In this document: in pieces, positions 7,228 to 45,585 of the stretch
How positions within the stretch are numbered: the first letter of the stretch is position 1
Layout: every line of letters starts with the position of its first letter
Source: a virus
Lineage: Duplodnaviria; Heunggongvirae; Uroviricota; Caudoviricetes
DNA: 45,689 nucleotides
Virus record (IMG/VR): IMGVR_UViG_2711768009_000006
Reading direction: 5' to 3' (one strand)
Position numbers and translations under genes: made by a program
The notes under the pieces: generated by a model
Seen by the model: only the letters and a program-made list of their open reading frames with translations
Databases searched by the model: none
What the model was told of the DNA's origin: nothing

Positions 7228-7802
7228 TGGCATTCAGAATGAGTGAACAACCACGGACCATAAAAATTTATAATCTGCTGGCCGGAACTAATGAATTTAT
7301 TGGTGAAGGTGATGCATATATTCCGCCTCATACAGGTCTGCCAGCAAACAGTACCGACATTGCACCGCCAGATATTCCAGCTGGCTTCGTGGCTGTTTTC
7401 AACAGTGATGAGTCATCGTGGCATCTCGTTGAAGATCATCGGGGTAAAACGGTTTATGACGTGGCATCAGGGGACGCGTTATTTATTTCTGAACTCGGTC
7501 CGTTACCGGAAAATGTTACTTGGTTGTCGCCGGAAGGGGAATATCAGAAGTGGAACGGTACAGCTTGGGTGAAAGATGCAGAAGCAGAAAAACTATTCCG
7601 GATCCGGGAGGCGGAAGAAACAAAAAACAGCCTGATGCAGGTAGCCAGTGAGCATATTGCGCCGCTTCAGGATGCTGCAGATCTGGAAATCGCAACGGAG
7701 GAAGAAACCTCGTTGCTGGAAGCCTGGAAAAAGTATCGGGTGTTGCTGAACCGTGTTGATACATCACTATCTCCAGATATCGAGTGGCCAAGTCAACCAT
7801 AA
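7227..7802 (+). CDS. tfa: Tail fiber assembly protein Tfa
   Basis: 191-aa [27 protein letters not shown]... matching recalled lambda Tfa; start overlaps the stf stop. Confidence 0.92.
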
Positions 7803-7834: not shown

Positions 7835-8800
7835 TTAATTATCAGTAGATTGTTCCTCTAGTAACAACTCAATTCTGCTTAGTATTTCTTTAGATATTTT
7901 GCGGCTATCAATTTTTATAGTTACAAAATTACCTTTATATCTGGCCGTGATCCCTTCCCCATATTTTTTCTCGTCTTTTGTTTTTTCCTCGCCGCCAACC
8001 AGAACAGAGTCAGATAATATTTGTATAATCCGTGAAGCTTCTAAATCCTCGCCGTTTTTTTTAATTGCCAGAAGATGATGAGCAGCATTGCTCATGGCAG
8101 CCATGTTTTTTTTGTAAACCTTAAACAAAGAATCTCCAGCACGAGCTGACAGTTCTCCTGGATGATTGAAGATAGCTAATATATCTTTTGGTAGACCAGC
8201 TGTATTAATACAGCGAGTGATAATATTTCTATCTATATTTTCAGCCTCGGCTAATGCTTTAACGTTACCATCAAAGTCATTTAGCTTGCGTAAGTATCTC
8301 TTTCCTCTTTCGTATGCACTAATAGGCCTATAATCGTTACCAATTTGGGATAACCAATGCATCTGTTCATCGTCGAGATCAGCAATTAAGACGCGATAGT
8401 CACATCCTGTTAATATCGCTGCTTTTCTTCTACGTGAGCCGTCAGCGACTTCAACGATTCCAGATACTTTTCTGGCGAAAGCTGGATTTTGTTGTCCAGA
8501 CGTTAGAAAAGATGGGATTAAATCGGCTAGAGAGGATTCATTTAATAAATCTTGATCGCGTTCATTACCTAGCCATACCATTGTTGCCATTTCAACTTTA
8601 TCTGCGGGAATTGTCTCTAACTTAAAGTTAACATTACGTCCGCATACTGGCAAAGTTATGCTGTTACCGGTTAATGAACTCAGTTGACGTTTTAAATCAC
8701 CAACCATAGGTGATACGGGCTGATGTTCAGGGGCATGATGATTATTACTCATAATGCGATTAATATCTGGAGCATTTTTTAGAAGAGAGCGCTGTTTCAT
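7835..8800 (-). CDS. sopB: ParB-family partition protein SopB
   Basis: 321-aa ORF immediately downstream of and overlapping the ParA gene; size and sequence character resemble F/N15 SopB. Confidence 0.85.
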   Translation of the reverse strand: MKQRSLLKNAPDINRIMSNNHHAPEHQPVSPMVGDLKRQLSSLTGNSITLPVCGRNVNFKLETIPADKVEMATMVWLGNERDQDLLNESSLADLIPSFLTSGQQNPAFARKVSGIVEVADGSRRRKAAILTGCDYRVLIADLDDEQMHWLSQIGNDYRPISAYERGKRYLRKLNDFDGNVKALAEAENIDRNIITRCINTAGLPKDILAIFNHPGELSARAGDSLFKVYKKNMAAMSNAAHHLLAIKKNGEDLEASRIIQILSDSVLVGGEEKTKDEKKYGEGITARYKGNFVTIKIDSRKISKEILSRIELLLEEQSTDN

Positions 8801-9966
8801 TATTCGTTCTCCCAGCGAGGTTTTATTAGATCATCAAAAATTTCTCGGCAAACAGGGTCCCATATAGAAACAGCATTTCTCCATGCATTCAATGTTGAAC
8901 GTTGGTTTGCTGCTTGTTCAAATACTGTTCTCATTTTTATCTGGCCTTTACCTACTTCATCGGTAACGCGTACAACCTGACGTAATACCATTGATCCCCA
9001 TGTATTTCTTATTTGTTCTTCCATCCATCGTGATTGATTCCCTGTAGTGATACTATATTTAGTCAGAAGTAAGCGAACGGTTGGCTCAAATCCACCTAGG
9101 TCAACGCTTTCCAATAGATCGAGAAGCATTGTGAAAAACTGTAGAACAGAAGCGTAATCAAATAATTCTGCAGGTGTAGCAACAACAATAACGTCAGCGG
9201 CACAAACAACGTTAATGGTTCCTGTACCGAGGTTCGGAGCACTATCTATAACGATAACATCGTAGTTATCCCAAACTGATTCAATAGCTGCGCGCAGCAT
9301 AAGGTGTGGAGGATGAGGCAATTTACCCTGAGCATGATATTGCATGAGATCTGTTTCTATACGATGTAAAGCTAGGCAGCTAGGGATAATGTCTAGCCCA
9401 GGCCAACATGTTGGCTTTATAGCATATTCAGCGTTATCGCGTTCTCCTAAGTAAAATGGCAGTAAAGTATCCTCGGCATGGATATGTAAATCAGGAACAT
9501 AACCGTGATACATAGAGGCCGTGCCTTGAGGATCGTTACCTTCAACCAAAAGAACACGATGACCTTGTAATGCTAACCATTGAGCTTGATGTACCGCAGA
9601 CGATGTTTTATAAACGCCGCCTTTGTGTGACATAACGGCAAGCACAACAGGGTTTTTATCTTGTGGTCGTTGGTTTGGGTTGCCAAAAACTGCTCGCATA
9701 CTGTTGATTTGATCTATGGTATAACCAGCACGACGTTCAATTCTTCCTCTCATTTCAAAGTCAGGTGCAGGTAAACGCCCGCTCTTCTCAGCATCTCTAA
9801 TTGCTTGAGGAGTTACACCAATTAAATCTGCTACTTCAGTTATACCCCATCGGCGGGTGATACGCCGAGCTTCAGGACTATCATCACCGAATTGAGCGAT
9901 AGCAATTGCTTGGGTCATTTCTTGACCTCTCGTAACACAATCTTGCAATAACTTTTTCAAAGACAT
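8800..9966 (-). CDS. sopA: ParA-family partition ATPase SopA
   Basis: 388-aa ORF; deviant Walker A KGGVYKT; long stretches recalled as near-identical to F-plasmid SopA (e.g. AHKGGVYKT, LVEGNDPQGTASMYHG, KPTCWPGLDIIPSCLALHRIE). Confidence 0.9.
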   Translation of the reverse strand: MSLKKLLQDCVTRGQEMTQAIAIAQFGDDSPEARRITRRWGITEVADLIGVTPQAIRDAEKSGRLPAPDFEMRGRIERRAGYTIDQINSMRAVFGNPNQRPQDKNPVVLAVMSHKGGVYKTSSAVHQAQWLALQGHRVLLVEGNDPQGTASMYHGYVPDLHIHAEDTLLPFYLGERDNAEYAIKPTCWPGLDIIPSCLALHRIETDLMQYHAQGKLPHPPHLMLRAAIESVWDNYDVIVIDSAPNLGTGTINVVCAADVIVVATPAELFDYASVLQFFTMLLDLLESVDLGGFEPTVRLLLTKYSITTGNQSRWMEEQIRNTWGSMVLRQVVRVTDEVGKGQIKMRTVFEQAANQRSTLNAWRNAVSIWDPVCREIFDDLIKPRWENE

Positions 9967-9984
9967 ACTGTCATCTCCAGCTTG

Positions 9985-10068
9985 TAACTTTGCTTAATAA
10001 TTAAATCTTTGCTTATTTCTAGCAAATTTGCATGAAAAAGGCAAAGCAAAACAAAAAACGCAAAGGCG
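9985..10068 (-). promoter_or_regulatory. Putative sopAB promoter/operator with CTTTGC/GCAAAG repeats
   Basis: CTTTGC at 9988-9993 and 10007-10012; GCAAAG at 10041-10046 and 10060-10065, directly upstream of the sopA start. F SopA autoregulates through CTTTGC operator repeats (established knowledge). Confidence 0.5.
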
Positions 10069-10313
10069 AATATTTGAGCTAAATCATCTTTTGTTCCCCT
10101 CCAGAAATGCATAAAACGAACAACAATATAATCATAACTAATTGATATTTATTACCTTTTCTAAGAAAGGAAATCATATAAAACTAGAGAAACATGATAA
10201 GAATCATCAATGAGATACGTTTTCTATATTAGTTATCCTAACCTTACCAACATAAGAACACAAACAGAGAACATAAAAACAAAGTAATAATACAAACACA
10301 ATAAAGAACATAA

Positions 10314-13031: not shown

Positions 13032-13193
13032 GGTATGCACTCCGTTTAATTGGTCGTGCTACCACCAGAGTTCCTACGCTCTATATGGCGGTAGCCCAGA
13101 CGGGGGTAGGAATACCGGTAAACGAAGAAACCGGCCAGCTAAAAGCTGCCCCATCTGAGCCACCATAAATTTGGTGTACGCAGATTTTACACA

Positions 13194-13217
13194 CAAAAAA
13201 ACACGCTGGCGCGTGTT
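13194..13217 (-). terminator. Rho-independent terminator ending the minus-strand repA-downstream operon
   Basis: Read on the minus strand: stem AACACGC / GCGTGTT with loop GCCA, followed by a run of 7 U. Confidence 0.6.
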
Positions 13218-13407
13218 GTGCGCTTCATTTACTCGGGTTCCTACGCCCGGCTACGGGATTTACCGTAGCGGAGTAAACTTTACCGTCAAAACGACGCGCA
13301 CGTCAATAATTTGCAAAGACATTTTACCCCGTGACCAGTCACGGGGACAGGTGTTTTTATAGTTTGCTTGAACGAGTGATCAGAAGTTGATCGTTAATCA
13401 AAGGCCA

Positions 13408-17600: not shown

Positions 17601-18631
17601 AGGCCGGTATTCCCTTTTCCTTCTGTGGCAGATTTCCGGTCATTATCCAGTGCGCAGGTGATTTTTGCCGCCGGGTACATGTTTACCAGTTGTTCCACAA
17701 CATGAACCATGTTGTTAGCGGATACAGCGACAACCACAGCGTCAAAGCGTTTATCTTTTTTCGTGGCAAGCCAGATGGATGCACCAGTAGCAAAACCTTC
17801 TGTAACAGCGATGTTTTGCGCCCCTTTCAGCTCACCGATAACAAAGCAGGCACCGACGAAATCACCGCTGGTTACTGCGCTGGTCTGGTATTTCCCACCT
17901 TGTTTGTCGATTCGCTGCCAACCCACAATACGACCATCATAACGACCGTCCAGGTGAGCCAGAGGGATAGCCATATATGTGGTTGGCCCCCGGCTCCATT
18001 TCGCACTGTCGTGACTGGTCACGCGACGCACATCACATGAACTAAAAACGTCACGAATACCTTTTTTAATCGCATATGGCCATGAGCCGTCTTCAGCCTG
18101 AGCATGTTCCCACGCGCTGTGGAATGCCAGCCATCCCAGCAAACGTTCATGGTCCATTTGGTTGTTTTTCAGATCATTAATTCGTTTTTGTTCTTCACGG
18201 CGACGACGTGCTTCGGCCTGACGTTCTATTCTTTCCCGTTCTTCTTCTGGTTGTGCGACCACGGTCGCATTATTCCGTTGTTGCTCACGGCGATATTCAG
18301 AAAACAGGAAGGAGAAACCGCTCCATGAGCCAGCATCGCTGCCTTTATGGACGAAGTTAATGAACGGGTAATCAATCCCTTTGCTGTGTTCCAGCCTGGA
18401 GTAAATTTCTACGCGTCCTTTCAGGCTCTTTTCGAGAGCTTCTGGAGATGTTTTATTGTATGAAGAGTAACGCTCAACCCCTCCGCGAGGGTTGAGTTGT
18501 ATGTTGTCGGAACAGGCAGGCCAGTTGATACCAGCCATCTGTGCCAGCTCGGTTAGTTCATCCCGTGCTGCTTCAATTAGCGAGAACGGATCGCTGCCAA
18601 AGCGATCCGCATAGAAATCGTTTAATGTCAT
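14636..18631 (-). CDS. repA: Replication initiator RepA (primase plus helicase multidomain protein)
   Basis: 1331-aa ORF; Walker A AGMGSGKST in the C-terminal half; size and position next to cB match N15 RepA. Confidence 0.93.
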   Translation of the reverse strand: MTLNDFYADRFGSDPFSLIEAARDELTELAQMAGINWPACSDNIQLNPRGGVERYSSYNKTSPEALEKSLKGRVEIYSRLEHSKGIDYPFINFVHKGSDAGSWSGFSFLFSEYRREQQRNNATVVAQPEEERERIERQAEARRRREEQKRINDLKNNQMDHERLLGWLAFHSAWEHAQAEDGSWPYAIKKGIRDVFSSCDVRRVTSHDSAKWSRGPTTYMAIPLAHLDGRYDGRIVGWQRIDKQGGKYQTSAVTSGDFVGACFVIGELKGAQNIAVTEGFATGASIWLATKKDKRFDAVVVAVSANNMVHVVEQLVNMYPAAKITCALDNDRKSATEGKGNTGLRTGYEILSKFNDVRCVYPTFEDDPQMECSDFNDLHKLRGLRETARQLFATANRLKTGTDLLSLTLNRLKTIKRDNRRTFAKELLRAVDIGMLTCPVPNSPSDLFNMFCIVLREMGLENIYRATVKDHIARRLNKKCRIAQAPRSFSERITDPNKRPQHITYKRFETSVMTDDVLKYVQSLQGIVIVRAGMGSGKSTGLLRPLMHSSERGISVAHRVSLIGGLWEMMTEGKGVKADILHYQDPGYQEMAPYASKLTICINSIVKNCWQPLMRQHDYFGFDEATQGLRAVLSGRAMENPVAVFNTLIDALARTEQHPIMVDADANDLLVDLAELAMKRREELGLPAWLQIHVIELPVDVRNRETGEPIRVFYTEKDRIMTEVVKAVSDGEKIMLATDSSTFAEDVTATLRMHFPGKKFLCVNQKNKPEPEVEAFTNQPKKMVKKYDGLIYSPSISSGVSIEQKHFDRHFGMFCGEVVPSDAVQMLRRDRTAKEFIIGFDKARAKRETDPQKIERAFAQALLATAGMNGELTDVVFDGDRISMGVANTDFTRMKIKAAAIEATARNDYASNMICIMHSDGYKVSPLATDYAANDIGKDLRKEARDIVWEQTLDLHLNTETPQESEREELLKKRALTLEEQAKLVRWDIENELKLPVEEGTLKFYFDGARDKVRRYETMLLDEVTARRYDREEAAINFTYAYRQAGQWQYFVVTAMTREQADDVFKTKFPGIIDHKVKATPTVEVGARGFYALKSATLRQYFIDCGINPETMTGEATQERLKFARDNLMTAERRDLLNNVLHIGGFMTPKGKPKVPEALFKNICDSLGLKTGKRRGRDGDKRPTLRFVEPESAAFMLDILVQRQKDGLTLKTRKAEKTAIEMDRDLDLNIYMDDKTRSTNEQVQNAPHSVISEALAVLPVAVPESWAMSALSSEELATMSSWSSASIAMTFASLYLTEFMDHLSSNELRRLREYITGNSSCSYEEQGAFYG
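18254..18269. promoter_or_regulatory. SopB-type centromere-like palindrome TGCGACCACGGTCGCA (inside the repA 5' coding region)
   Basis: 7-bp inverted arms TGCGACC/GGTCGCA with a 2-bp centre; encodes NATVVAQ in RepA; same architecture as the recalled F sopC core TGGGACCACGGTCCCA. Confidence 0.55.
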
Positions 18632-19564: not shown

Positions 19565-19786
19565 ATGAAACCAGAAGAACTTATTCGCCATTTTGGCAGT
19601 GTAGAAAAAGCAGCGGCAGGGGTAGGTGTAACACCCGGAGCTGTTTACCAATGGTTAACCGCTGGAGAGATTCCTTCATTGCGGCAAAGCGATATTGAAG
19701 TTCGTACTGCTTATAAGCTGAAGAGTGACTTTACAACTCGGCGGGTAAAGCAGTCGATTAAGGAGAGTCGTAAGCGTGGAGCTTGA
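19565..19786 (+). CDS. cro: Cro-like transcriptional regulator
   Basis: 73-aa HTH protein (GVGVTPGAVYQWLTAGEIP) divergent from cB. A TATAAT 6 bp upstream with no SD suggests a leaderless or short-leader mRNA; the track's upstream TTG start at 19541 is an alternative. Confidence 0.7.
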   Translation: MKPEELIRHFGSVEKAAAGVGVTPGAVYQWLTAGEIPSLRQSDIEVRTAYKLKSDFTTRRVKQSIKESRKRGA

Positions 19787-20486
19787 GTATATACGCAGCT
19801 GCGTCTCTACGGCATTGGCTGATGTTCATTATCGCCAGCGTGGCATTCTGGAGGTCCAGCTTGAGCAGATGCGTCTCGGTAGATCAGGACGGTTTAACAA
19901 TAAACCAGTCCGGTCAATCAGTGTGGGGGATGATAACTCATACGAAGTGTCCGTTCCTGCTGAGCCGGTTAGATTCCATCAGGGGAAAACATTTAAACAA
20001 TCATCAATGTTGCTCACTGATATTGATTTTCAGAGCGCCAGCTGGCGCAGGGCTATTGGTCAGTTGAATAACGAGGAATCAGCCTGGCTTTATTATTGCT
20101 ACGGATGCAAGCCTGATTACAACAATGATGTGATTGTTTGTCAGTGGTTATGGCTTGATTTTCTGGTTGCTCATTCGGGGGGCGGCTTTAAAAAAATGAA
20201 GGCCTCCACGAAAAAAGCCATGCGGAAATTGATTTATTACGCGGCACAACAGGTTAAATCAGAACTTACGTGTGCTGAGGCAGTTGATGAGAGAGAACAG
20301 GACAGGCATCTGAGTTTTCTACTGAATATATCTATTGATAGCTGGAGACAAGATTATAAAGAACGCTGGCTTTTAATTAAGTCGCGATGTCTGAGCTTAA
20401 ATCGAACCGCATTATTAAATGCGGCGGAGAAGCGCAGTGAAATCATCAAACGCCATCGGGCAGGAAGTGCCATTCTGCCTTTGTAA
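19776..20486 (+). CDS. Putative late-gene regulator (Q-like antiterminator, assigned by synteny only)
   Basis: 236-aa ORF with GTG start overlapping the cro stop; the cB-cro-Q order is known for N15; I recognise no diagnostic motif. Confidence 0.35.
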   Translation: MELEYIRSCVSTALADVHYRQRGILEVQLEQMRLGRSGRFNNKPVRSISVGDDNSYEVSVPAEPVRFHQGKTFKQSSMLLTDIDFQSASWRRAIGQLNNEESAWLYYCYGCKPDYNNDVIVCQWLWLDFLVAHSGGGFKKMKASTKKAMRKLIYYAAQQVKSELTCAEAVDEREQDRHLSFLLNISIDSWRQDYKERWLLIKSRCLSLNRTALLNAAEKRSEIIKRHRAGSAILPL

Positions 20487-20493
20487 ACAAGTT

Positions 20494-20739
20494 ATGTTCA
20501 GGAAACCGTCGAAGCCAGAATTAAGGTATTCGGGGGTAAGAAATGAATATGTTATTTGGTGTCCAACTTGTGGTTACAGGACACGACCAGATAGTAATAA
20601 GCAGTCTGTAATTGCCGATTGGTATTTATCAAATCAGCCAGGTAATAAGCATATAGAAAATCTTTGGATTAAGCGTTACTTGGAAATCAGAGAGGGTGCG
20701 ACCGTGGTCGCACAAGAAAATGAAAATAACGCCATTTAA
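20494..20739 (+). CDS. Small Zn-ribbon-like protein (81 aa)
   Basis: Internal ATG of the track ORF; C-x2-C motif (CPTCG) with upstream CLC; contains a centromere-like palindrome in its coding sequence. Confidence 0.4.
   Translation: MFRKPSKPELRYSGVRNEYVIWCPTCGYRTRPDSNKQSVIADWYLSNQPGNKHIENLWIKRYLEIREGATVVAQENENNAI
20697..20712. promoter_or_regulatory. SopB-type centromere-like palindrome TGCGACCGTGGTCGCA
   Basis: Same 7-bp arms as the other sites; encodes GATVVAQ. Confidence 0.55.
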
Positions 20740-20923
20740 GCAGGGGCCGATGACGCATGATGAAGCAGAGCGTCTTTCAGATACTTATCGGCGGCGTGGT
20801 AAGAAAGTTCTGGTTGTTCGTTCTGATTTTTTAGGTGATGGATATTGCGTTTATGTTCATTTACCTGAATCAGAAAGAACGCCAAAACCATCCAGAACAT
20901 ATCAACAGAAAATTTGGGTATAG
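20720..20923 (+). CDS. Hypothetical protein (67 aa)
   Basis: ORF MKITPFKQGPMTHDEAERL...; overlaps the preceding gene. Confidence 0.3.
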   Translation: MKITPFKQGPMTHDEAERLSDTYRRRGKKVLVVRSDFLGDGYCVYVHLPESERTPKPSRTYQQKIWV

Positions 20924-20988
20924 ATAAACGTTGAGGAGAATTATTCGTGACTAATCAGATTATTTACGACAGGAAACGGTCTGATGTA

Positions 20989-21546
20989 ATGATTGATCTT
21001 GAAACAATGGGTACTAACACATGTGCTCCAATTGTTTCTATCGGGGCAGTGTTTTTTTCTCCAGAAAGTGAGGAATTAGGTCCTACTTTTTATGTGCCAG
21101 TGAATCTCAGAAGCTCGATGTTGAATGGTGGTATCGCCGATGGTGATACCATTTTATGGTGGTTGAAACAGAGCAAGGAAGCCAGAGCCGCTATTTGTAC
21201 TAATGATGCCCTTGATATTAAGGATGCACTTTTTGAATTATCACACTTTATTACTTGCCATGCATGTAATTTAAAAAAGTTGAAAGTATGGGGAAATGGA
21301 GCAACGTTCGATAATGTAATTTTACGCGGTGCTTATGAGCGCGTTGGCTTAGCCTGTCCGTGGGAATATTTTAATGATCAGGATGTTCGAACAATCGTTA
21401 ATCTTGGTCAGTTTATTGGTTTTAATCCTAAAAAAGATATGCCATTTGATGGCGAACGACACAATGCCCTGGCTGATGCTATTCATCAGGCTAAATATGT
21501 ATCCGCAATTTTCTCCCGTCTTGTAAAAGGGCAAGGAGAATCGTAA
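20989..21546 (+). CDS. DnaQ-like 3'-5' exonuclease (DEDDh family)
   Basis: MIDLETMG (Exo I D-x-E), WGNGATFDNVILR (Exo II) and HNALADAIHQA (Exo III H-x4-D) motifs; ATG at 20989 has SD AGGAAACGG; the track's GTG at 20947 is an alternative start. Confidence 0.7.
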   Translation: MIDLETMGTNTCAPIVSIGAVFFSPESEELGPTFYVPVNLRSSMLNGGIADGDTILWWLKQSKEARAAICTNDALDIKDALFELSHFITCHACNLKKLKVWGNGATFDNVILRGAYERVGLACPWEYFNDQDVRTIVNLGQFIGFNPKKDMPFDGERHNALADAIHQAKYVSAIFSRLVKGQGES

Positions 21547-21965
21547 TGGCAAAGGCTTTTACACCAGAACAGAGGGAAGAACTGAATAAACAAATTGTGG
21601 AACTCGTGCGCCTGAATGGACGAGGAACGGTTAGGCAACTTGCGGATGAAACTGGTATTAGCCGGTGTGCTGTTAGTCGTTTATCAAGAGAGCTTGCTGC
21701 CAGTGGTGATTTGTATATCTCTGGCTCCGGGATATTTCTGTCTGCACAAGCACGCAAGGACTGGCAAAACGCCCGTAAAAAACTATCAAGAGTAAAGCCG
21801 AAGAAATCGGTAGTTGTTGATCCTGACCTTATCTGGTCATTACCTGATGGAGAAATACGTCGTTATGACAGGCGCTTGAACATGATTTGTCACGATTGTC
21901 GGAAGAGCGAAGTTATGCAGCGTGTGTTGGCGTTTTATCAGGGAAATTTTCAGGAGGTGGCGTAG
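21546..21965 (+). CDS. Putative HTH DNA-binding protein (139 aa)
   Basis: ORF with HTH-like segment TVRQLADETGISRCAVSRLSREL. Confidence 0.5.
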   Translation: MAKAFTPEQREELNKQIVELVRLNGRGTVRQLADETGISRCAVSRLSRELAASGDLYISGSGIFLSAQARKDWQNARKKLSRVKPKKSVVVDPDLIWSLPDGEIRRYDRRLNMICHDCRKSEVMQRVLAFYQGNFQEVA

Positions 21966-24996: not shown

Positions 24997-25002
24997 AAAC
25001 TG

Positions 25003-25018
25003 TGCGACCACGGTCGCA
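25003..25018. promoter_or_regulatory. SopB-type centromere-like palindrome TGCGACCACGGTCGCA (intergenic)
   Basis: Extended 20-bp palindrome TGTGCGACCACGGTCGCACA immediately after a stop codon. Confidence 0.6.
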
Positions 25019-25103
25019 CAGCACAAAAACGAAAAAGCTTGGCAAAATGACGGTTTTTAGTTATTGTTTTGTTAAGTTGGGTTTTTTGTACCCAATAGCC
25101 AAC

Positions 25104-26708: not shown

Positions 26709-27205
26709 TGCAGTCATCATTACGCAAAGCTGTCACAGCTGCTATTGGTGGCGGGGCTATTGCCATAGCGTCTATGCTCATCACTGGCCCAAGTGGTAAC
26801 GATGGTCTGGAAGGTGTCAGTTACATACCATACAAAGATATTGTTGGCGTATGGACTGTATGTTACGGGCACACTGGAAAAGACATCATGCTCGGTAAAA
26901 CGTATACCGAAGCAGAATGCAAAGCTCTCCTGAATAAAGACCTTGCCACTGTTGCCAGACAAATTAATCCGTACATCAAAGTCGATATACCGGAAACAAC
27001 GCGCGGCGCTCTTTACTCGTTCGTTTACAACGTGGGCGCTGGTAATTTCAGAACATCGACGCTTCTTCGCAAAATAAACCAGGGCGATATCAAAGGCGCA
27101 TGTGATCAGCTACGTCGCTGGATATATGCTGGCGGTAAGCAATGGAAAGGCCTGATGACTCGTCGTGAGATTGAGCGTGAAGTCTGTTTGTGGGGTCAAC
27201 AATGA
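26705..27205 (+). CDS. SAR endolysin (T4-lysozyme-like muramidase, P21 R21-like)
   Basis: N-terminal signal-anchor-release segment [23 protein letters not shown]; catalytic E-x8-D-x5-T in [16 protein letters not shown]; start overlaps the holin stop. Confidence 0.88.
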
Positions 27206-27669
27206 GCAGGGTAACCGCGATTATCTCCGCTCTGGTTATCGGCATCATCGTCTGCTTGTCGTGGGCTGTTAATCATTACCGTGATAACGCCATCGCCTAC
27301 AAAGAGCAGCGCGACAAAAACGCCAGAGAGCTGAAGCAGGCGACCGCCACCATTACTGACATGCAGCAGCGCCAGCGTGCTGCTGATGCACTCGATGCTA
27401 AATACACGAAGGAGTTAGCCAATGCGAAAGCTGAAAATGATGCTCTTCGGCGTAAGCTTGATAATGGTGGTCGGGTGCTCGTCAAAGGAAAATGCCCTGT
27501 GCCAGCCTCAGCCAAAACCTCCAGCGCCTCCGGCATGGGCAATGATGCCACCGTCGAACTCTCTTCAGTTGCTGGACGAAACGTTCTCGGTATCCGGGAC
27601 GGAATTATCCGCGACCAAACAGCACTGAGAACGCTTCAGGAATACATCAATACGCAATGCCTGAATTAA
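27202..27669 (+). CDS. Rz: i-spanin Rz
   Basis: [45 protein letters not shown]... matches recalled lambda Rz in the N-terminal half; TM anchor plus coiled coil. Confidence 0.85.
27422..27628 (+). CDS. Rz1: o-spanin Rz1 (lipoprotein embedded in the +1 frame of Rz)
   Basis: [21 protein letters not shown] with lipobox VVGC and a Pro-rich mature part ([11 protein letters not shown]); fully nested inside Rz. Confidence 0.75.
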
Positions 27670-27710
27670 TCCCTCTGTATCAAAAACGAACTCAATTTGT
27701 TGGATAGTGA

Positions 27711-28022
27711 ATGAAAATTTATATTGCCGGGCCAATGACGGGATATGAGAACTTTAATCGTGACGCCTTTAATAAAGAGGCAGATCGTTTGTCACGACAT
27801 GGTCACTCTGTCTTGAATCCAGCCACTTTGCCTAATGGTCTGACACAACGTGAATACATGGATATTTGCTTTGCAATGCTTCGTTGTGCGGATGCTATTT
27901 TGATGCTTCCTGGCTGGAAAGCGTCTGCTGGAGCAACTGCTGAGTATCATTACGCATACAAGATGGAGATGCCGGTATTCACTACGCTGAATTACCCGCC
28001 AGCTTGTTCCTCTGCAGTATAA
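27711..28022 (+). CDS. Small Rossmann-like protein (nucleoside 2-deoxyribosyltransferase-like / DUF4406-type)
   Basis: MKIYIAGPMTGYENFN ... LMLPGWKASAGATAEY pattern typical of this phage-associated family (from memory). Confidence 0.55.
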   Translation: MKIYIAGPMTGYENFNRDAFNKEADRLSRHGHSVLNPATLPNGLTQREYMDICFAMLRCADAILMLPGWKASAGATAEYHYAYKMEMPVFTTLNYPPACSSAV

Positions 28023-28042
28023 AAATCTCTTTGTTTCTCGTG

Positions 28043-28058
28043 TGCGATCGTGGTCGCT
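28043..28058. promoter_or_regulatory. Degenerate centromere-like palindrome TGCGATCGTGGTCGCT
   Basis: Two mismatches relative to the other sites; 12 bp upstream of direct repeat A. Confidence 0.3.
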
Positions 28059-28069
28059 CGCTAAATTCC

Positions 28070-28280
28070 GCGCTGCATCGTCGCCGTATTCCCGCATTAA
28101 CTATGACCGTAGCCCGACGGGGAACTCCTCTGCGCGAGTGTGCGGAAATAATCAAAAACGATGCACACCGGGTTTTTACCGCGCTAATGATTCGCGGGTT
28201 TGTCCCTCATGCTCGCTAGTCCTGTGCGAGGGTGGAAGAAACAGGGCATGTATTCAGGAGCGTGCGACCGTGGTCGCACG
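28070..28280 (+). repeat. 211-bp direct repeat, copy A (left flank of the two-gene cassette)
   Basis: Aligns without indels to 29854-30064 with about 10 mismatches; ends in the centromere-like palindrome. Confidence 0.9.
28263..28278. promoter_or_regulatory. SopB-type centromere-like palindrome TGCGACCGTGGTCGCA (end of repeat A)
   Basis: 25 bp upstream of the cassette gene start codon. Confidence 0.6.
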
Positions 28281-28302
28281 GTATCTTTGTCAGGAGGTTT
28301 TG

Positions 28303-29163
28303 ATGAAAGAGTTGCAAAAAATTAATTCAATAATGGAACGATTAATTGCTCTTGAGCTTAAGCTGGCCGATTGCGGAAAACTGTGTGCTGAAAAGCAAAA
28401 TGAGCTTTACCGGGAATTTGTTACAATCGTAAGTGAGCTGATGCCAATTGTTAATAACTGCCTAATGACATCCATATTTTTTAATGTCGATGCTACTACA
28501 TCCAGAAAATTTACTGTGAAAATTCAAGAAAGAGTTTCTGGTAGTGTGACAAGAGAGATGGCTGAACAGTTTGTGGCAATGAGTAATAAAACAAAAAGAA
28601 AAAAGGCATTGCTTGTAACAGTAAATCAGCTTTCAGGGCGCGTTGACTTTCAGGTCAGACAGGGTGGGCGTGTACTGGTAAACGATGCGTTCGTTGGACG
28701 TTGCTTTAGTCCTTACTCGATGAAATATGATGTTGATGCAGATGATCAGGATATCAGCATTTCCTGGAAATCTGAGACAGCAGGGATTGTATTAACAGCA
28801 GAGTTGTTGAGTGATGATAAAAATGATGGCCAGCATCATTTGGACGAAAAAAATCATATTTCTGAAATTTGTATGAAGCCACGTAGTGGAATGACTTTAT
28901 TGTCGCGAACTCTTGCTGCTGGCTTTTCTGCAACGGAGAAACGTGTGCTTCTGGTAGTGCCTGAAGATGCAGATATTCGTCCACTGAATGGCTGTGATGT
29001 TATTAGTGCAAAAACATTGCATACCCGCATCATGCCTGTACCGGATGTGGTCATCATTGATGATATTGAGAAATGCAAGTCTGTTTCCTCAACTGCCACA
29101 ATCAAACGAATTTTACGTTGTAGCACGTCGGCTGTTGTATTCCAGAAGCAGTTACATAACTAA
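28303..29163 (+). CDS. Hypothetical cytoplasmic protein (286 aa), cassette gene 1
   Basis: ORF from the ATG with strong SD AGGAGG (MKELQKINSIMERLIALELK...); AT-rich codon usage unlike the lambda-like genes; no recognised motif. Confidence 0.6.
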   Translation: MKELQKINSIMERLIALELKLADCGKLCAEKQNELYREFVTIVSELMPIVNNCLMTSIFFNVDATTSRKFTVKIQERVSGSVTREMAEQFVAMSNKTKRKKALLVTVNQLSGRVDFQVRQGGRVLVNDAFVGRCFSPYSMKYDVDADDQDISISWKSETAGIVLTAELLSDDKNDGQHHLDEKNHISEICMKPRSGMTLLSRTLAAGFSATEKRVLLVVPEDADIRPLNGCDVISAKTLHTRIMPVPDVVIIDDIEKCKSVSSTATIKRILRCSTSAVVFQKQLHN

Positions 29164-29287
29164 CCAGTTTTGTTTTGCAGAACATCCTCAACTAAAAGCT
29201 TATAGAAAGAGAGCCAGAGATATTTTTTTTCTGTCTCTCGTAGTTGTTTATTTTTTCGAACAGGCTTACAACTTACAGGATATATAC

Positions 29288-29737
29288 ATGCAAGAAGAAG
29301 CAAAGAAAATTCTTGTTGATTTATTGAACAATGCCAGCGATGGAATTGATTCCGCCATTGCATTCAGTCAGGCTCAGATTCCGGATGTTGTTCATCAGTT
29401 GCTGGTATGGAATATAGTTGATAGCCTGATTAAAACATTAATAGCCATTTCAACAATCCCGCTGGTTATTTGGTTTATGAAGAAACAGTGCAAAAAAGTT
29501 GAAATTGGTAAGTTCGATAATGACGGACGCTCATGTGATAATGGACAGCCTAAATACAAACCGACTATGATTTGGGAAAGTGACGGTAGGTTAAGTGCTT
29601 TTGTCTTACCATTAGTAGCAGTTTTTATTCTATGGTTAAGTTTTATTATTTCTATAGTAGCCAATATGACATGGTTAAAAATCTGGCTGGCACCTAAGTT
29701 ATATCTAATCGAATACGCAGCATCACTAATTAAATAG
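29288..29737 (+). CDS. Hypothetical two-helix membrane protein (149 aa), cassette gene 2
   Basis: Internal ATG of track ORF 28988..29737; hydrophobic helices LIKTLIAISTIPLVIWFM and AFVLPLVAVFILWLSFIISIVANMTW; start choice uncertain. Confidence 0.5.
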   Translation: MQEEAKKILVDLLNNASDGIDSAIAFSQAQIPDVVHQLLVWNIVDSLIKTLIAISTIPLVIWFMKKQCKKVEIGKFDNDGRSCDNGQPKYKPTMIWESDGRLSAFVLPLVAVFILWLSFIISIVANMTWLKIWLAPKLYLIEYAASLIK

Positions 29738-29853
29738 CCCATTACAAAAGCCATTCGCTACTGAGTGGCTTTGATAATGGCTTATACCCTACACGGGATA
29801 ACTTAACTAATATCCCTTTTAACGGATAAAGGTATTCAAGCCTGACACATTAT

Positions 29854-30064
29854 GCGCTGCATCGTCGCCGTATTTCCGCATTAACTATGACCGTAGCCTG
29901 ACGGGGAACTCCTCTGCGCGAGTGTGTGGAAATAATCAAAAACGATGCATACCGGGTTTTTACAGCGCTAATGATTCGCGGGTTTGTCCCCCATGCTCGC
30001 CAGCTCTGTGCGGGGGTGGAAGAAACAGGGCATGTATTCAGGAGCGTGCGACCGTGGTCGCACG
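29854..30064 (+). repeat. 211-bp direct repeat, copy B (right flank of the two-gene cassette)
   Basis: About 95 percent identical to 28070-28280; ends in the centromere-like palindrome. Confidence 0.9.
30047..30062. promoter_or_regulatory. SopB-type centromere-like palindrome TGCGACCGTGGTCGCA (end of repeat B)
   Basis: Identical to the site at 28263-28278. Confidence 0.6.
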
Positions 30065-30119
30065 ACGCTGGTCTGTCAGACATTGAATTCATTGCGAATA
30101 AACCAGAACGCCTGCGGGT

Positions 30120-30334
30120 CCTTTCCGGCGATCCGGCAGGCTACGGGGCGGAAGGCGCGCGGGTTTTCGCTATTTATGAAAATTTTCCGGTTTAAGGCGT
30201 TTCCGTTCTTCTTCTCCGTAACTTCATGTTTTTATTTAAAACACCCCCTGAAAAGAAAGGAAACGACAGATGCTGAAAACGGGCTTTTTGGCCTTTGTCA
30301 TTTCCTTTCTCTGTTTTTGTCCGTGGAATGAACA
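30120..30334. other. cos packaging site (cosN plus lambda-like cosB) upstream of Nu1
   Basis: CGCGGGTTTTCGCTATTTATGAAAATTTTCCGGTTTAAGGCGTTTCCGTTCTTCTTC... matches the recalled lambda left end; putative cosN 12-mer GGGCGGAAGGCG at 30146-30157 (lambda is GGGCGGCGACCT). Confidence 0.75.
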
Positions 30335-30854
30335 ATGGAAGTCAACAAAAAGCAGCTGGCTGATATTTTCGGTGCGAGTATCCGTACCATTCAGAACTGG
30401 CAGGAGCAGGGAATGCCCGTTCTGCGAGGCGGTGGCAAGGGTAATGAGGTGCTTTATGATTCTGCCGCCGTCATAAAATGGTATGCCGAAAGGGATGCTG
30501 AAATTGAGAACGAAAAGCTGCGCCGGGAGGTTGAAGAACTGCGGCTGGCCAGCGAGGCAGATCTTCACCCCGGAACACTTGAATTTGAGCGCCATCGCCT
30601 GACTCGTGCTCAGGCGACGGCGCAGGAACTGAAAAATGCCAAAGAATCGGCTGAAGTGGTGGAAACCGCATTCTGTACTTTCGTGCTGTCGCGTATAGCA
30701 AGGGAAATATCCAGTATTCTCGACGGTATTCCTCTGTCGGTGCAGCGACGTTTTCCTGAGCTGGATAACCGGCATATTGATTTCCTGAAACGGGATATCA
30801 TCAAAGCCATGAACAAAGCAGCCGCGCTGGATGAACTGATACCGGGGTTGCTGA

Positions 30855-45016: not shown

Positions 45017-45585
45017 AAACGGGGGCTGAAGCCATCCGGGCACTGGCCACACAGCTCCCGGCGTTTCGTCAGAAACTGAGCGACGGCTGGTATCAGGTAC
45101 GGATTTCCGGGCGGGACGTCAGCACGTCCGGATTGACGGCGCAGTTACATGAGGTTCTGCCTGACGGCGCTGTGATTCATATTGTTCCCAGAGTCGCCGG
45201 GGCCAAGTCAGGGGGCGTATTCCAGATTGTCCTGGGAGCTGCCGCCATTGCCGGATCATTCTTTACTGCCGGAGCCACCCTTGCAGCATGGGGGGCAGCC
45301 ATTGGGGCCGGTGGTATGACCGGCATCCTGTTTTCTCTCGGTGCCAGTATGGTGCTCGGTGGTGTGGCGCAGATGCTGGCACCGAAAGCCAGAACTCCCC
45401 GTACACAGACAACGGATAACGGCAAACAGAACACCTATTTCTCCTCACTGGATAACATGGTTGCTCAGGGCAATGTTCTGCCTGTTCTGTACGGTGAAAT
45501 GCGTGTGGGGTCACGGGTGGTTTCTCAGGAGATCAGCACGGCAGACGAAGGGGACGGTGGTCAGGTTGTGGTGATTGGTCGCTGA
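44914..45585 (+). CDS. I: Tail tip assembly protein I
   Basis: 223-aa ORF overlapping the K 3' end by 103 nt, as in lambda. Confidence 0.93.
   Translation: MAATHTLPLASPGMARICLYGDLQRFGRRIDLRVKTGAEAIRALATQLPAFRQKLSDGWYQVRISGRDVSTSGLTAQLHEVLPDGAVIHIVPRVAGAKSGGVFQIVLGAAAIAGSFFTAGATLAAWGAAIGAGGMTGILFSLGASMVLGGVAQMLAPKARTPRTQTTDNGKQNTYFSSLDNMVAQGNVLPVLYGEMRVGSRVVSQEISTADEGDGGQVVVIGR

What the first reader, a model, noticed from the sequence alone, without database searches (positions are those of the whole stretch)
28043..30064. AT-rich two-gene cassette bracketed by 211-bp direct repeats: candidate undescribed accessory or defence module
Seen: between the lysis genes and cos, where lambda carries bor, there is a 1.57-kb insert visibly more AT-rich than the lambda-like flanks. 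It encodes a 286-aa soluble protein (strong SD, no motif I recognise) and a 149-aa protein with two TM helices. It is flanked by two 211-bp direct repeats (28070-28280 and 29854-30064, about 95 percent identical, no indels), each ending in a SopB-type palindrome. Inference: a horizontally acquired module that can be lost or gained by recombination between the repeats. A soluble sensor plus small membrane effector is the classic layout of abortive-infection and superinfection-exclusion systems, and the adjacent SopB sites could silence it.
Basis: partly seen in the sequence, partly recalled or inferred. Interest (0 to 1): 0.75.

Follow-up and report, generated by a model that had tools for sequence, protein, structure and literature searches.

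The report
Accessory gene pair between duplicated phage spacers
Two genes of unknown function sit in a well-known variable spot of a lambda-like linear phage-plasmid, flanked by two copies of an ordinary phage spacer that each end in a plasmid-partition site; the repeats do allow loss of the genes, but nothing shows that the genes form a defence system.

Summary
There are 216-nt direct repeats at 28065-28280 and 29849-30064 (94% identical). The interior is AT-rich (GC 0.38). It holds a 286-aa soluble ORF and a 149-aa ORF with two hydrophobic segments. Each repeat ends in an 18-bp palindrome.

The palindrome is identical to the published SopB centromere sites IR1/IR4 of phage N15. The window is an N15-family phage-plasmid (SopB 73%, TelN 82% identical to N15).

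The repeat unit ("X") is not a mobile-element end. It is a conserved non-coding block that follows the lysis genes in lambdoid prophages and occurs in 3056 of 5426 complete E. coli genomes. The right copy is the native one; the left copy is an extra 220-bp unit.

One relative has a single chimeric X and no cassette, so exchange between the repeats is documented.

The genes are not an obligate pair. ORF-B occurs alone in hundreds of temperate and virulent phages. ORF-A is a fusion of modules found separately elsewhere. There are no PADLOC, Pfam or NCBIfam matches, and structure models were poor.

The same cassette, palindromes included, sits in integrated lambda-like prophages that lack sop genes.

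Verdict: an ordinary lambdoid accessory ("moron") segment of unknown function. The defence reading is unsupported.

The parts
27711..28022 (+). DUF4406 (nucleoside 2-deoxyribosyltransferase-like) gene. It is the first gene of the block that travels with ORF-A and ORF-B.
   Evidence: Pfam PF14359 E=3.7e-34. It lies directly upstream of palindrome-ORF-A in every relative examined. N15 gene 57 is a homologue.
28042..28059 (.). pal0: a degenerate N15-type SopB site, GTGCGATCGTGGTCGCTC, with 2 mismatches.
   Evidence: The site is perfect (GCGACCGTGGTCGC) in most relatives.
28065..28280 (+). Left direct repeat: X element (28070-28261) plus pal1. It is an extra copy of the lambdoid post-lysis non-coding block.
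   Evidence: It is absent, as an exact 220-bp unit, from L009 and L056-L059.
28262..28279 (.). pal1: a perfect N15-type SopB centromere site, 23 nt upstream of the ORF-A start codon.
   Evidence: Identical to N15 IR1/IR4 (PMC7205306 Table 4). The junction GCACGGTATCTTTGTCAGGAGG is conserved in all variants.
28303..29163 (+). ORF-A, 286 aa, soluble. It has an N-terminal helical module, a central beta module and a C-terminal P-loop-like module with Met in place of the Walker A Lys.
   Evidence: phrog_2571 E=6.6e-155 with no other family match. Only about 15 close homologues, all Escherichia. dN/dS 0.26. Modules.
29209..29256 (+). Intergenic hairpin (29209-29239) followed by a T-rich tract. It is a terminator-like element between ORF-A and ORF-B.
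   Evidence: RNA fold. It was not called by the consensus terminator scan.
29288..29737 (+). ORF-B, 149 aa, with two predicted transmembrane helices. It belongs to a widespread phage accessory membrane-protein family.
   Evidence: phrog_3054 E=7.6e-55. 481 homologues. 176 phage records including Sf6 gp34, CUS-3, N4-like, rV5-like and Vibrio phages. Hydropathy. dN/dS 0.62.
29738..29848 (+). 'postB': the first part of the native lambdoid post-lysis non-coding block, with a long hairpin at about 29739-29780.
   Evidence: Contiguous with X directly after Rz in phages Ayreon and vB_EcoS-569R4, at 94-96% identity. Its first ~45 nt are annotated as a terminator in Ayreon. Fold.
29849..30064 (+). Right direct repeat: the native X element (29854-30045) plus pal2.
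   Evidence: In most relatives this copy diverges after X position 176 and lacks the palindrome.
30046..30063 (.). pal2: a perfect N15-type SopB centromere site.
   Evidence: PMC7205306.
18253..18270 (.). SopB site with flanks like N15 IR1.
20696..20713 (.). SopB site with flanks like N15 IR2.
25002..25019 (.). SopB site.
7835..8800 (-). sopB, the cognate centromere-binding protein.
   Evidence: 73% identical to N15 SopB, E=3e-180.

Best explanation
This is an accessory ('moron') segment in the lysis-to-cos gap of an N15-family linear phage-plasmid. That gap is the same variable slot where lambda carries bor.

**Architecture (shown).**
- A block DUF4406 - SopB palindrome - ORF-A - ORF-B lies between the spanin gene and a conserved non-coding block (postB+X). 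That non-coding block follows the lysis genes in lambdoid phages generally.
- In this lineage a 220-bp unit (X plus one palindrome) has been copied to the palindrome upstream of ORF-A. ORF-A and ORF-B are therefore bracketed by two X copies, each ending in an N15-type centromere site.

**What the repeats do (shown in part).**
- The repeats are substrates for ordinary homologous recombination. A natural single-X chimera without the cassette exists.
- By sequence identity with N15 IR1/IR4, and because sopB is present, the palindromes are partition sites. This region is the positional equivalent of N15 IR4, here in triplicate.

**How the genes are used (inferred).**
- The two genes are independent modules, not a coupled system.
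- ORF-A is most likely read as part of the late transcript that runs through the lysis genes.
- ORF-B is an inner-membrane accessory protein used during lytic growth. A role in superinfection exclusion or some other envelope function is the most likely guess.
- In the plasmid prophage, SopB spreading from the flanking sites may damp any weak local promoter, but the cassette does not depend on this.
For: **N15 family and palindromes.**
- SopB 73% and TelN 82% identical to N15.
- The palindrome equals N15 IR1/IR4 (PMC7205306 Table 4).
- The N15 IR4 palindrome lies downstream of its DUF4406 gene and upstream of gp59, near cosR.

**X is native lambdoid DNA.**
- postB+X are contiguous after Rz in Ayreon and 569R4.
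- X occurs in 3056 of 5426 complete E. coli genomes, almost always unannotated.
- Lambda has a partial copy at 46869-46975.

**Variants.**
- Block without the left X: L009 and L056-L059.
- Single chimeric X without the cassette: L006.
- Internal deletions: L004, L005, L012, L019, L039, L040.

**The genes are independent.**
- ORF-B alone occurs after N in PL operons and in other lysis-terminase gaps, and in virulent phages.
- ORF-A's N-terminal module stands alone after the palindrome in L007 (E=5e-10).
- Its beta module is a ~74-aa family encoded at the Rz stop codon.

**The genes are real.**
- dN/dS is 0.26 for ORF-A and 0.62 for ORF-B.

**The cassette is not tied to sop.**
- A 99.9% identical copy lies in an integrated lambda-like prophage without sop or telN.

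**Regulation.**
- No sigma-70 consensus promoter lies upstream of ORF-A.
- N15 SopB silences a weak promoter next to an IR array (PMC7205306).
Against: - Function is not established for either protein.
- Structure models were poor (pLDDT 54 and 62) and fold searches were uninformative.
- The direction of events cannot be proven from sequence. This applies both to duplication of X versus deletion between pal0 and pal1, and to loss versus gain of the cassette in L006. L019's right copy already carries the same chimeric SNP pattern as L006, so gene conversion preceded or accompanied the event.
- Whenever ORF-A is intact, ORF-B follows it in every locus examined. A lineage-specific functional link is therefore not excluded.
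- Promoter scans use a simple consensus and can miss real promoters.
Confidence: 0.65

Rival explanations
1. ORF-A (soluble sensor) and ORF-B (membrane effector) form an undescribed two-gene abortive-infection or exclusion system. It is expressed from the prophage and kept quiet by SopB bound at the flanking sites.
For: - Soluble-plus-membrane layout and AT-rich foreign composition.
- Located in a known moron slot.
- ORF-B always follows intact ORF-A.
- ORF-B has an elevated dN/dS of 0.62, with variation in the inter-helix loop.
- N15 SopB can silence adjacent weak promoters.
Against: - No PADLOC match.
- An independent DefenseFinder survey found no complete defence system in N15-like phage-plasmids.
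- ORF-B is common without ORF-A, including in virulent phages and early operons.
- A spacer with a terminator-like hairpin lies between the genes.
- No consensus promoter lies upstream of ORF-A.
- The cassette is frequently broken by deletions in relatives.
- The same cassette exists where no SopB is encoded.
Confidence: 0.1
2. A lysis-associated accessory function. ORF-A and/or ORF-B modulate lysis timing or envelope disruption as part of the late lysis transcript.
For: - ORF-A's central domain is homologous to a ~74-aa protein family whose gene overlaps the stop codon of the spanin gene Rz in many lambdoid prophages.
- The cassette lies directly after the lysis genes, on the same strand.
- ORF-B is a small two-helix membrane protein and sits after lysis genes in Klebsiella and E. 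coli prophages.
Against: - Most ORF-B homologues lie in early-left operons next to N, or in early regions of virulent phages, not near lysis genes.
- No holin, antiholin or spanin family matched.
- The window already has a holin, an endolysin and a spanin.
- The cassette is dispensable in relatives that keep the same lysis genes.
Confidence: 0.12
3. A toxin plus immunity pair analogous to the telocin/Imm cassettes of Klebsiella telomere phages. In this reading ORF-A is a secreted or released toxin and ORF-B its membrane immunity protein.
For: Telomere phages of the N15 group carry soluble-toxin plus inner-membrane-immunity cassettes that are expressed in the lysogen (PMC12042878). The gene order and protein sizes are loosely similar.
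Against: - Different locus: telocins lie between repA and telN.
- No bacteriocin or immunity domain in Pfam or NCBIfam.
- ImmA has four hydrophobic helices; ORF-B has two.
- ORF-B occurs alone in virulent phages.
- ORF-A is built from small late-region phage modules.
Confidence: 0.03
4. The two ORFs are decaying passengers without function. Selection acts only on the duplicated X+palindrome units as extra centromere sites.
For: - Several independent deletions truncate ORF-A and remove ORF-B.
- Three SopB sites cluster here, against one (IR4) in N15.
- ORF-A is confined to a narrow lineage.
Against: - dN/dS of 0.26 for ORF-A across 11 alleles indicates purifying selection.
- Intact copies predominate: 19 of the 26 plasmid records that share the DUF4406 end of the query (H41-H66) cover at least 80% of it.
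- The ORF-B family is conserved across very distant phages.
- The cassette is kept in integrated prophages, where centromere sites are useless.
Confidence: 0.08

Closest known systems
Lambda-type morons in the late region (bor between Rz and cos; lom in the tail region), as defined for lambdoid phages. This rests on my knowledge of Juhala/Hendrix and Barondess & Beckwith.
   Same: - Same slot between the lysis genes and cos.
- Dispensable, present or absent among close relatives.
- Base composition differs from the flanks.
- Terminator-like hairpins follow the genes.
   Different: - bor is a lipoprotein on the opposite strand with its own promoter.
- Here two unrelated genes lie on the late strand with no recognisable promoter.
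- No homology to Bor or Lom.
The dispersed centromere sites IR1-IR4 of phage N15, bound by SopB (Ravin & Lane 1999; Grigoriev & Lobocka 2001; sequences in PMC7205306).
   Same: - Identical 18-bp palindrome.
- Cognate sopAB present.
- Flanks of the sites at 18253 and 20696 resemble IR1 and IR2.
- The cluster next to cos is the positional equivalent of IR4.
   Different: - Six sites instead of four.
- Three lie within 2 kb, two of them inside a 216-nt direct repeat.
- The same sites also occur in integrated prophages without sop genes.
Conserved 'boundary sequences' at mosaic junctions of lambdoid and P22-like phages, annotated as bsq in Sf6 and CUS-3.
   Same: Short conserved non-coding DNA shared by otherwise different phages, lying at the edges of exchangeable modules and offering homology for recombination.
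   Different: - X is a different sequence at a different junction.
- It is about 200 nt long, is duplicated here, and shows weak signs of conserved hairpins.
Single-gene membrane exclusion proteins of phages (T4 Imm, P22 SieA, lambda/P22 SieB, HK97 gp15). This comparison rests on my own knowledge.
   Same: ORF-B is a small phage-encoded inner-membrane protein. It is found in accessory slots, in early operons next to sieB and N, and also in virulent phages.
   Different: - No sequence-family match to SieB, Imm or any Pfam family.
- No functional data.
Telocin/Imm cassettes of Klebsiella telomere phages (PMC12042878).
   Same: - The host element is of the N15 group.
- A two-gene cassette encoding a soluble protein plus a small inner-membrane protein.
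   Different: - Different locus and no homology.
- ORF-B is not restricted to this pairing.

Membership tests
N15-type SopB centromere site (IR) | An 18-bp palindrome GTGCGACCNNGGTCGCAC matching experimentally used N15 IR sites. | tested here: met
   28262 and 30046 are identical to IR1/IR4 read on the other strand. 28042 has 2 mismatches.
N15-type SopB centromere site (IR) | Cognate SopB/SopA encoded on the same replicon. | tested here: met
   SopB 73% identical to N15 SopB. SopA 93% identical.
N15-type SopB centromere site (IR) | SopB binding and a contribution to plasmid stability. | not testable with these tools
   Needs ChIP or EMSA and stability assays.
Known anti-phage defence systems (PADLOC models) | A significant HMM match of at least one component. 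| tested here: not met
   No PADLOC hit at E<=1 for ORF-A, ORF-B or the DUF4406 protein.
Two-gene abortive-infection system (sensor plus membrane effector) | The two genes co-occur as a unit across genomes. | tested here: not met
   ORF-B occurs without ORF-A in PL operons, other lysis-terminase gaps and virulent phages. ORF-A's modules occur separately.
Two-gene abortive-infection system (sensor plus membrane effector) | Expression from the prophage state from its own promoter. | tested here: inconclusive
   No sigma-70 consensus upstream of either gene on the + strand. The scan is crude.
Two-gene abortive-infection system (sensor plus membrane effector) | Protection of a population against phage, with death or arrest of infected cells. 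| not testable with these tools
   Needs an experiment.
Moron (extra gene unit in a lambdoid late operon) | Present in some and absent from other closely related phages, between conserved genes. | tested here: met
   Variants with, without and with broken cassettes between the same DUF4406 and Nu1 genes.
Moron (extra gene unit in a lambdoid late operon) | Base composition distinct from the flanks. | tested here: met
   GC 0.384 against 0.48-0.52.
Moron (extra gene unit in a lambdoid late operon) | Own promoter and terminator. | tested here: inconclusive
   Hairpins follow ORF-A (29209-29239) and ORF-B (29739-29780). No consensus promoter found.
Transposon, IS or integron-type mobile cassette | A dedicated recombinase and element-specific ends. 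| tested here: not met
   No transposase or integrase domain in either ORF. The repeats are direct copies of native lambdoid sequence.
Superinfection-exclusion families SieB, Imm and holins (Pfam) | A profile match for ORF-B. | tested here: not met
   ORF-B has no Pfam family at E<=1. Its only other PHROG hit is a weak one to a 'membrane protein' moron family, phrog_1486, E=0.006.
P-loop NTPase (ORF-A C-terminal module) | Walker A GxxxxGK[ST] and Walker B hhhhD[DE], with significant similarity to a known NTPase. | tested here: not met
   The motif is KPRSGMT, with Met invariant at the Lys position, followed by DVVIIDD. The best PDB hits are sub-threshold: P4 at E=0.07 and Wzc at E=0.12. It resembles a dead P-loop core but is not a demonstrated member.
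Telocin/immunity cassette | A bacteriocin-like toxin domain plus a cognate multi-helix immunity protein at the repA-telN locus. | tested here: not met
   No bacteriocin or immunity domain. The locus is different.

The most novel reading that the evidence does not exclude
ORF-B represents a large uncharacterised family of phage inner-membrane proteins. It is found in P22-like, lambdoid, N4-like, rV5-like and Vibrio phages. The family could act in superinfection exclusion or counter-defence. In this lineage it may have been coupled to the chimeric pseudo-NTPase ORF-A to form an undescribed exclusion module. That module sits inside the SopB partition complex, so its expression could differ between the plasmid prophage and lytic growth.
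Probability: 0.12. Interest if true: 0.6.

Novelty: new member of a known kind. Interest (0 to 1): 0.3.

Why it matters
If my reading is right, the finding is mainly a worked example of how lambdoid mosaicism operates.
- A conserved non-coding spacer is duplicated and then serves as the homology for deleting or inserting accessory genes.
- N15 centromere sites hitch-hike with that spacer into integrated prophages, where they have no partner protein.

The practical value is modest.
- It flags two protein families with no known function: phrog_2571, and the widespread phrog_3054.
- It flags an unannotated ~300-nt conserved element present in more than half of complete E. coli genomes. All three are cheap targets for experiment.
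- It warns against reading 'direct repeats plus soluble and membrane gene' as a defence signature.

Tried and rejected
1. Searches failed because I took the ORF starts one base too far right. They were repeated.
2. AlphaFold2 on shallow (ORF-A, 10 sequences) and moderate (ORF-B, 37 sequences) alignments gave pLDDT 53.7 and 62.2.
4. Rfam found nothing in 27600-30500 even at E<=1.
5. RNAalifold on 29 distinct X copies gave only 4 of 47 pairs with compensatory change. I do not claim a structured RNA.
6. N15 gp59, the gene after IR4, is unrelated to ORF-A and ORF-B.
7. A profile comparison of the ORF-A C-terminal module with SopA found only an insignificant Walker B-like stretch. I therefore dropped the idea of a ParA-derived domain. 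The Wzc hit is inflated because PDB entry 3LA6 prints Met (PSIGMT) at the position where ORF-A has PRSGMT; from my own knowledge this is the Walker A K540M mutant.
8. Ravin & Lane 1999 (PMC94163) is not held. PMC12315714 mentions neither the PhiR46 phage nor N15.
9. An exact-match scan of species-representative genomes with the X core found only Escherichia, plus short contigs from metagenome bins. It added little diversity.
Full report
**Context.** The window is a circularly permuted N15-family linear phage-plasmid.
- It encodes a SopB 73% identical to N15 SopB and a SopA 93% identical.
- It encodes a protelomerase 82% identical to TelN and a large RepA-like ORF.
- Its virion, lysis and terminase genes are lambda-like.
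- The finding lies between the spanin gene (27190-27669) plus a DUF4406 gene (27711-28022; Pfam E=3.7e-34) and the small terminase gene (30335-). Lambda has bor in this interval.

**Observation.** Everything described is there.
- The repeats are 28065-28280 and 29849-30064: 216 nt, 94% identical, ungapped.
- The interior has GC 0.384, against 0.50 for the window.
- ORF-A (28303-29163, 286 aa) follows an AGGAGG and has no hydrophobic segment.
- ORF-B (29288-29737, 149 aa) has two hydrophobic segments.
- Each repeat ends in GTGCGACCGTGGTCGCAC. With up to 3 mismatches the window has six such sites where 0.05 are expected. One is a degenerate site at 28042, just left of the left repeat.
- The architecture recurs in independent plasmid, chromosome and metagenome records, with the two copies always distinguishable. 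It is not an assembly artefact.

**The palindromes.**
- The oligonucleotides used to build an N15 centromere give IR1 and IR4 as GTGCGACCACGGTCGCAC (PMC7205306 Table 4). That is the same 18-mer read on the other strand.
- The N15 genome has the IR4 palindrome at 45560-45584, between gene 58 and gene 59 and downstream of its DUF4406 gene 57.
- The window's sites at 18253 and 20696 have flanks resembling IR1 and IR2.
- I therefore accept these as SopB centromere sites by homology. The cluster next to cos is the positional equivalent of IR4, here present three times.
- N15 SopB has been shown to silence a weak promoter about 50 bp from an IR array.

**The repeat unit is native lambdoid DNA.**
- The unit without the palindrome (X, about 192 nt) matches 364 phage records. 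It matches 3056 of 5426 complete E. coli genomes, almost always with no annotated feature.
- In ordinary lambdoid phages (Ayreon, vB_EcoS-569R4), the 110 nt that follow ORF-B in the window (29738-29848, 'postB') and X are one contiguous block directly after the lysis genes. Ayreon's annotators call the first 45 nt a terminator.
- Lambda keeps a partial copy at 46869-46975.
- So the right repeat is the resident post-lysis spacer, and the left repeat is an extra copy of its second half.
- There is no Rfam match. RNAalifold on 29 distinct copies gives only weak covariation.

**Comparative anatomy**.
1. The simplest form is DUF4406 - one perfect palindrome - ORF-A - ORF-B - postB - X - cos. It is seen in an E. 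fergusonii plasmid (L009) and in records annotated as E. coli chromosomes (L056-L059).
2. The commonest form adds exactly 220 bp (X plus a palindrome) at the palindrome upstream of ORF-A. Its right X diverges after position 176 and has no palindrome (L010, L011, L013, L028, L031/33, L035, L038, L042).
3. The window form has a palindrome on the right X as well (L001, L034, L084).
4. Several lineages carry internal deletions. One runs from ORF-A nt 584 to the last 23 nt of ORF-B (five loci). Another truncates ORF-A at nt 353 (L005).
5. L007 has, after X and the palindrome, only a 69-aa ORF homologous to the N-terminus of ORF-A (E=5e-10).
6. L006 (CP148365) has a single X and no cassette.
   - Its first ~120 nt carry the left-copy SNPs and the left junction. 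The rest carries the right-copy SNPs and the right junction.
   - This is the product of an X-by-X exchange, or formally its substrate. The direction cannot be settled.
   - L019's right copy already shows the same chimeric pattern, so gene conversion between the copies also occurs.

**Not specific to phage-plasmids.**
- A copy 99.9% identical to the window, with all three palindromes, lies in a classical integrated lambda-like prophage that has cI, cro, O/P-type replication genes, the nin region and Q, but no sop or telN (L084).
- Of 5426 complete E. coli genomes, 66 have part of the cassette and 28 have at least 80% of it. Over all 70 matched places, partial ones included, 56 are on chromosomes and 14 on plasmids.
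- The cassette's function therefore cannot depend on SopB. The centromere sites hitch-hike.

**ORF-B.**
- It belongs to phrog_3054 (unknown function) and has no Pfam, NCBIfam or PADLOC match.
- It has 481 homologues across Enterobacteriaceae and 176 phage records.
- In P22-like and lambdoid prophages it sits in the early-left operon just after N, next to ral or sieB (Sf6 gp34, CUS-3, many Salmonella and E. coli prophages).
- In other prophages it sits alone in the lysis-terminase gap.
- In virulent phages it lies among early-type genes: N4-like FSL SP-076 next to the RNA polymerase genes, rV5-like VEcB, and as an isolated gene in a Vibrio phage.
- Nucleotide homology with other prophages begins about 56 nt upstream of its start codon and ends at its stop codon. 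The mobile unit is this single gene.
- The N- and C-terminal segments are nearly invariant. The loop and the second helix vary. dN/dS is 0.62.

**ORF-A.**
- It belongs to phrog_2571 (unknown function). Full-length relatives are all at least 80% identical and all from Escherichia. dN/dS is 0.26, so it is a real gene.
- It is modular.
  - Residues 1-57 resemble the small ORF that follows the palindrome in L007.
  - Residues ~100-170 belong to a family of ~74-aa proteins whose genes overlap the stop codon of Rz in many lambdoid, Stx-like prophages. Other relatives lie between Q and the holin, or before HNH-terminase.
  - Residues 190-286 look like a minimal P-loop core, KPRSGMT...DVVIIDD, with Met invariant where the Walker A Lys should be. 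The best PDB matches are below significance (P4 NTPase E=0.07, Wzc E=0.12).
- The AF2 model is poor (pLDDT 53.7) and fold searches are uninformative.

**Assessment of the defence hypothesis.** The evidence points away from a coupled sensor/effector.
- The genes are independent in distribution.
- A 124-nt spacer with a hairpin and a T-tract separates them.
- There is no consensus promoter upstream and no match to known defence families.
- An independent DefenseFinder survey of N15-like elements found no complete system.
- The cassette is often damaged in relatives.
- What remains in its favour is the layout, the composition, the strict adjacency whenever ORF-A is intact, and the fast-evolving loop of ORF-B.
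- The telocin/immunity cassettes of Klebsiella telomere phages are another soluble-plus-membrane precedent, but they lie at a different locus and show no homology.

**Conclusion.**
- The best-supported reading is an ordinary lambdoid accessory segment in a known hot spot.
- It is bracketed by a duplicated native spacer that carries N15 partition sites.
- Its gene functions are unknown.
- My best guess is that ORF-B is an envelope-acting accessory protein used during lytic growth, and that ORF-A is a late-expressed chimeric protein.

Noticed in passing
window 29738-30045 (and 28070-28261): A conserved non-coding block of about 300 nt (postB+X) follows the lysis genes of lambdoid phages. X occurs in 3056 of 5426 complete E. 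coli genomes, is almost never annotated, and has no Rfam family. Alignment of 29 distinct copies shows weak hints of two conserved hairpins (alignment columns 111-129 and 140-168). The exact core was found only in Escherichia among species representatives.
   Followed up: partly
L084 (CP116970.1, E. coli chromosome) 19764-21785: Perfect N15-type SopB centromere palindromes sit in an integrated lambda-like prophage with no sop or telN genes. Partition sites have been carried into phages where they have no partner protein.
   Followed up: partly
window 28303-29163; L007 2109-2318; L078-L083 4001-4225: ORF-A looks like a fusion of three units that exist separately in relatives. These are a ~69-aa helical protein after the palindrome, a ~74-aa protein whose gene overlaps the Rz stop codon in many Stx-like prophages, and a P-loop-like core with Met in place of the Walker A Lys. 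The 74-aa post-Rz family is itself uncharacterised and common.
   Followed up: partly
window 7570-7768 (+), 13084-13170 (-), 13196-13269 (-): Rfam matches above gathering score: IS009 (222 bits), C4 antisense RNA (74 bits) and isrK (62.5 bits). The latter two are adjacent, in the region between telN and repA.
   Followed up: no
L004, L012, L019, L039, L040: The same internal deletion, joining ORF-A nt 584 to the last 23 nt of ORF-B, recurs in five loci from plasmids and viral contigs. I did not determine whether this is one lineage or a recurrent event.
   Followed up: no
L041 9946-10434; L029 23-77: After X and the palindrome, the first 55 nt of ORF-A (85% identical) are followed by different DNA, with an unrelated 81-aa ORF further downstream (9946-10191). 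This points to alternative cargo at the same junction.
   Followed up: no
L020, L022, L025, L026, L036: X copies in other viral contigs extend through most of the palindrome, with a mutated right arm. I did not determine whether these contigs are N15-like or integrated prophages.
   Followed up: no
window 28042-28059: The leftmost palindrome carries two mismatches in the window and in its closest relatives (L001, L034, L084). It is perfect in most other relatives.
   Followed up: yes
L043 2934-5826: In the prophage that encodes the distant ORF-A relative P0144, about 2.9 kb between an Rce1-like gene and P0144, downstream of Q, has no called gene.
   Followed up: no
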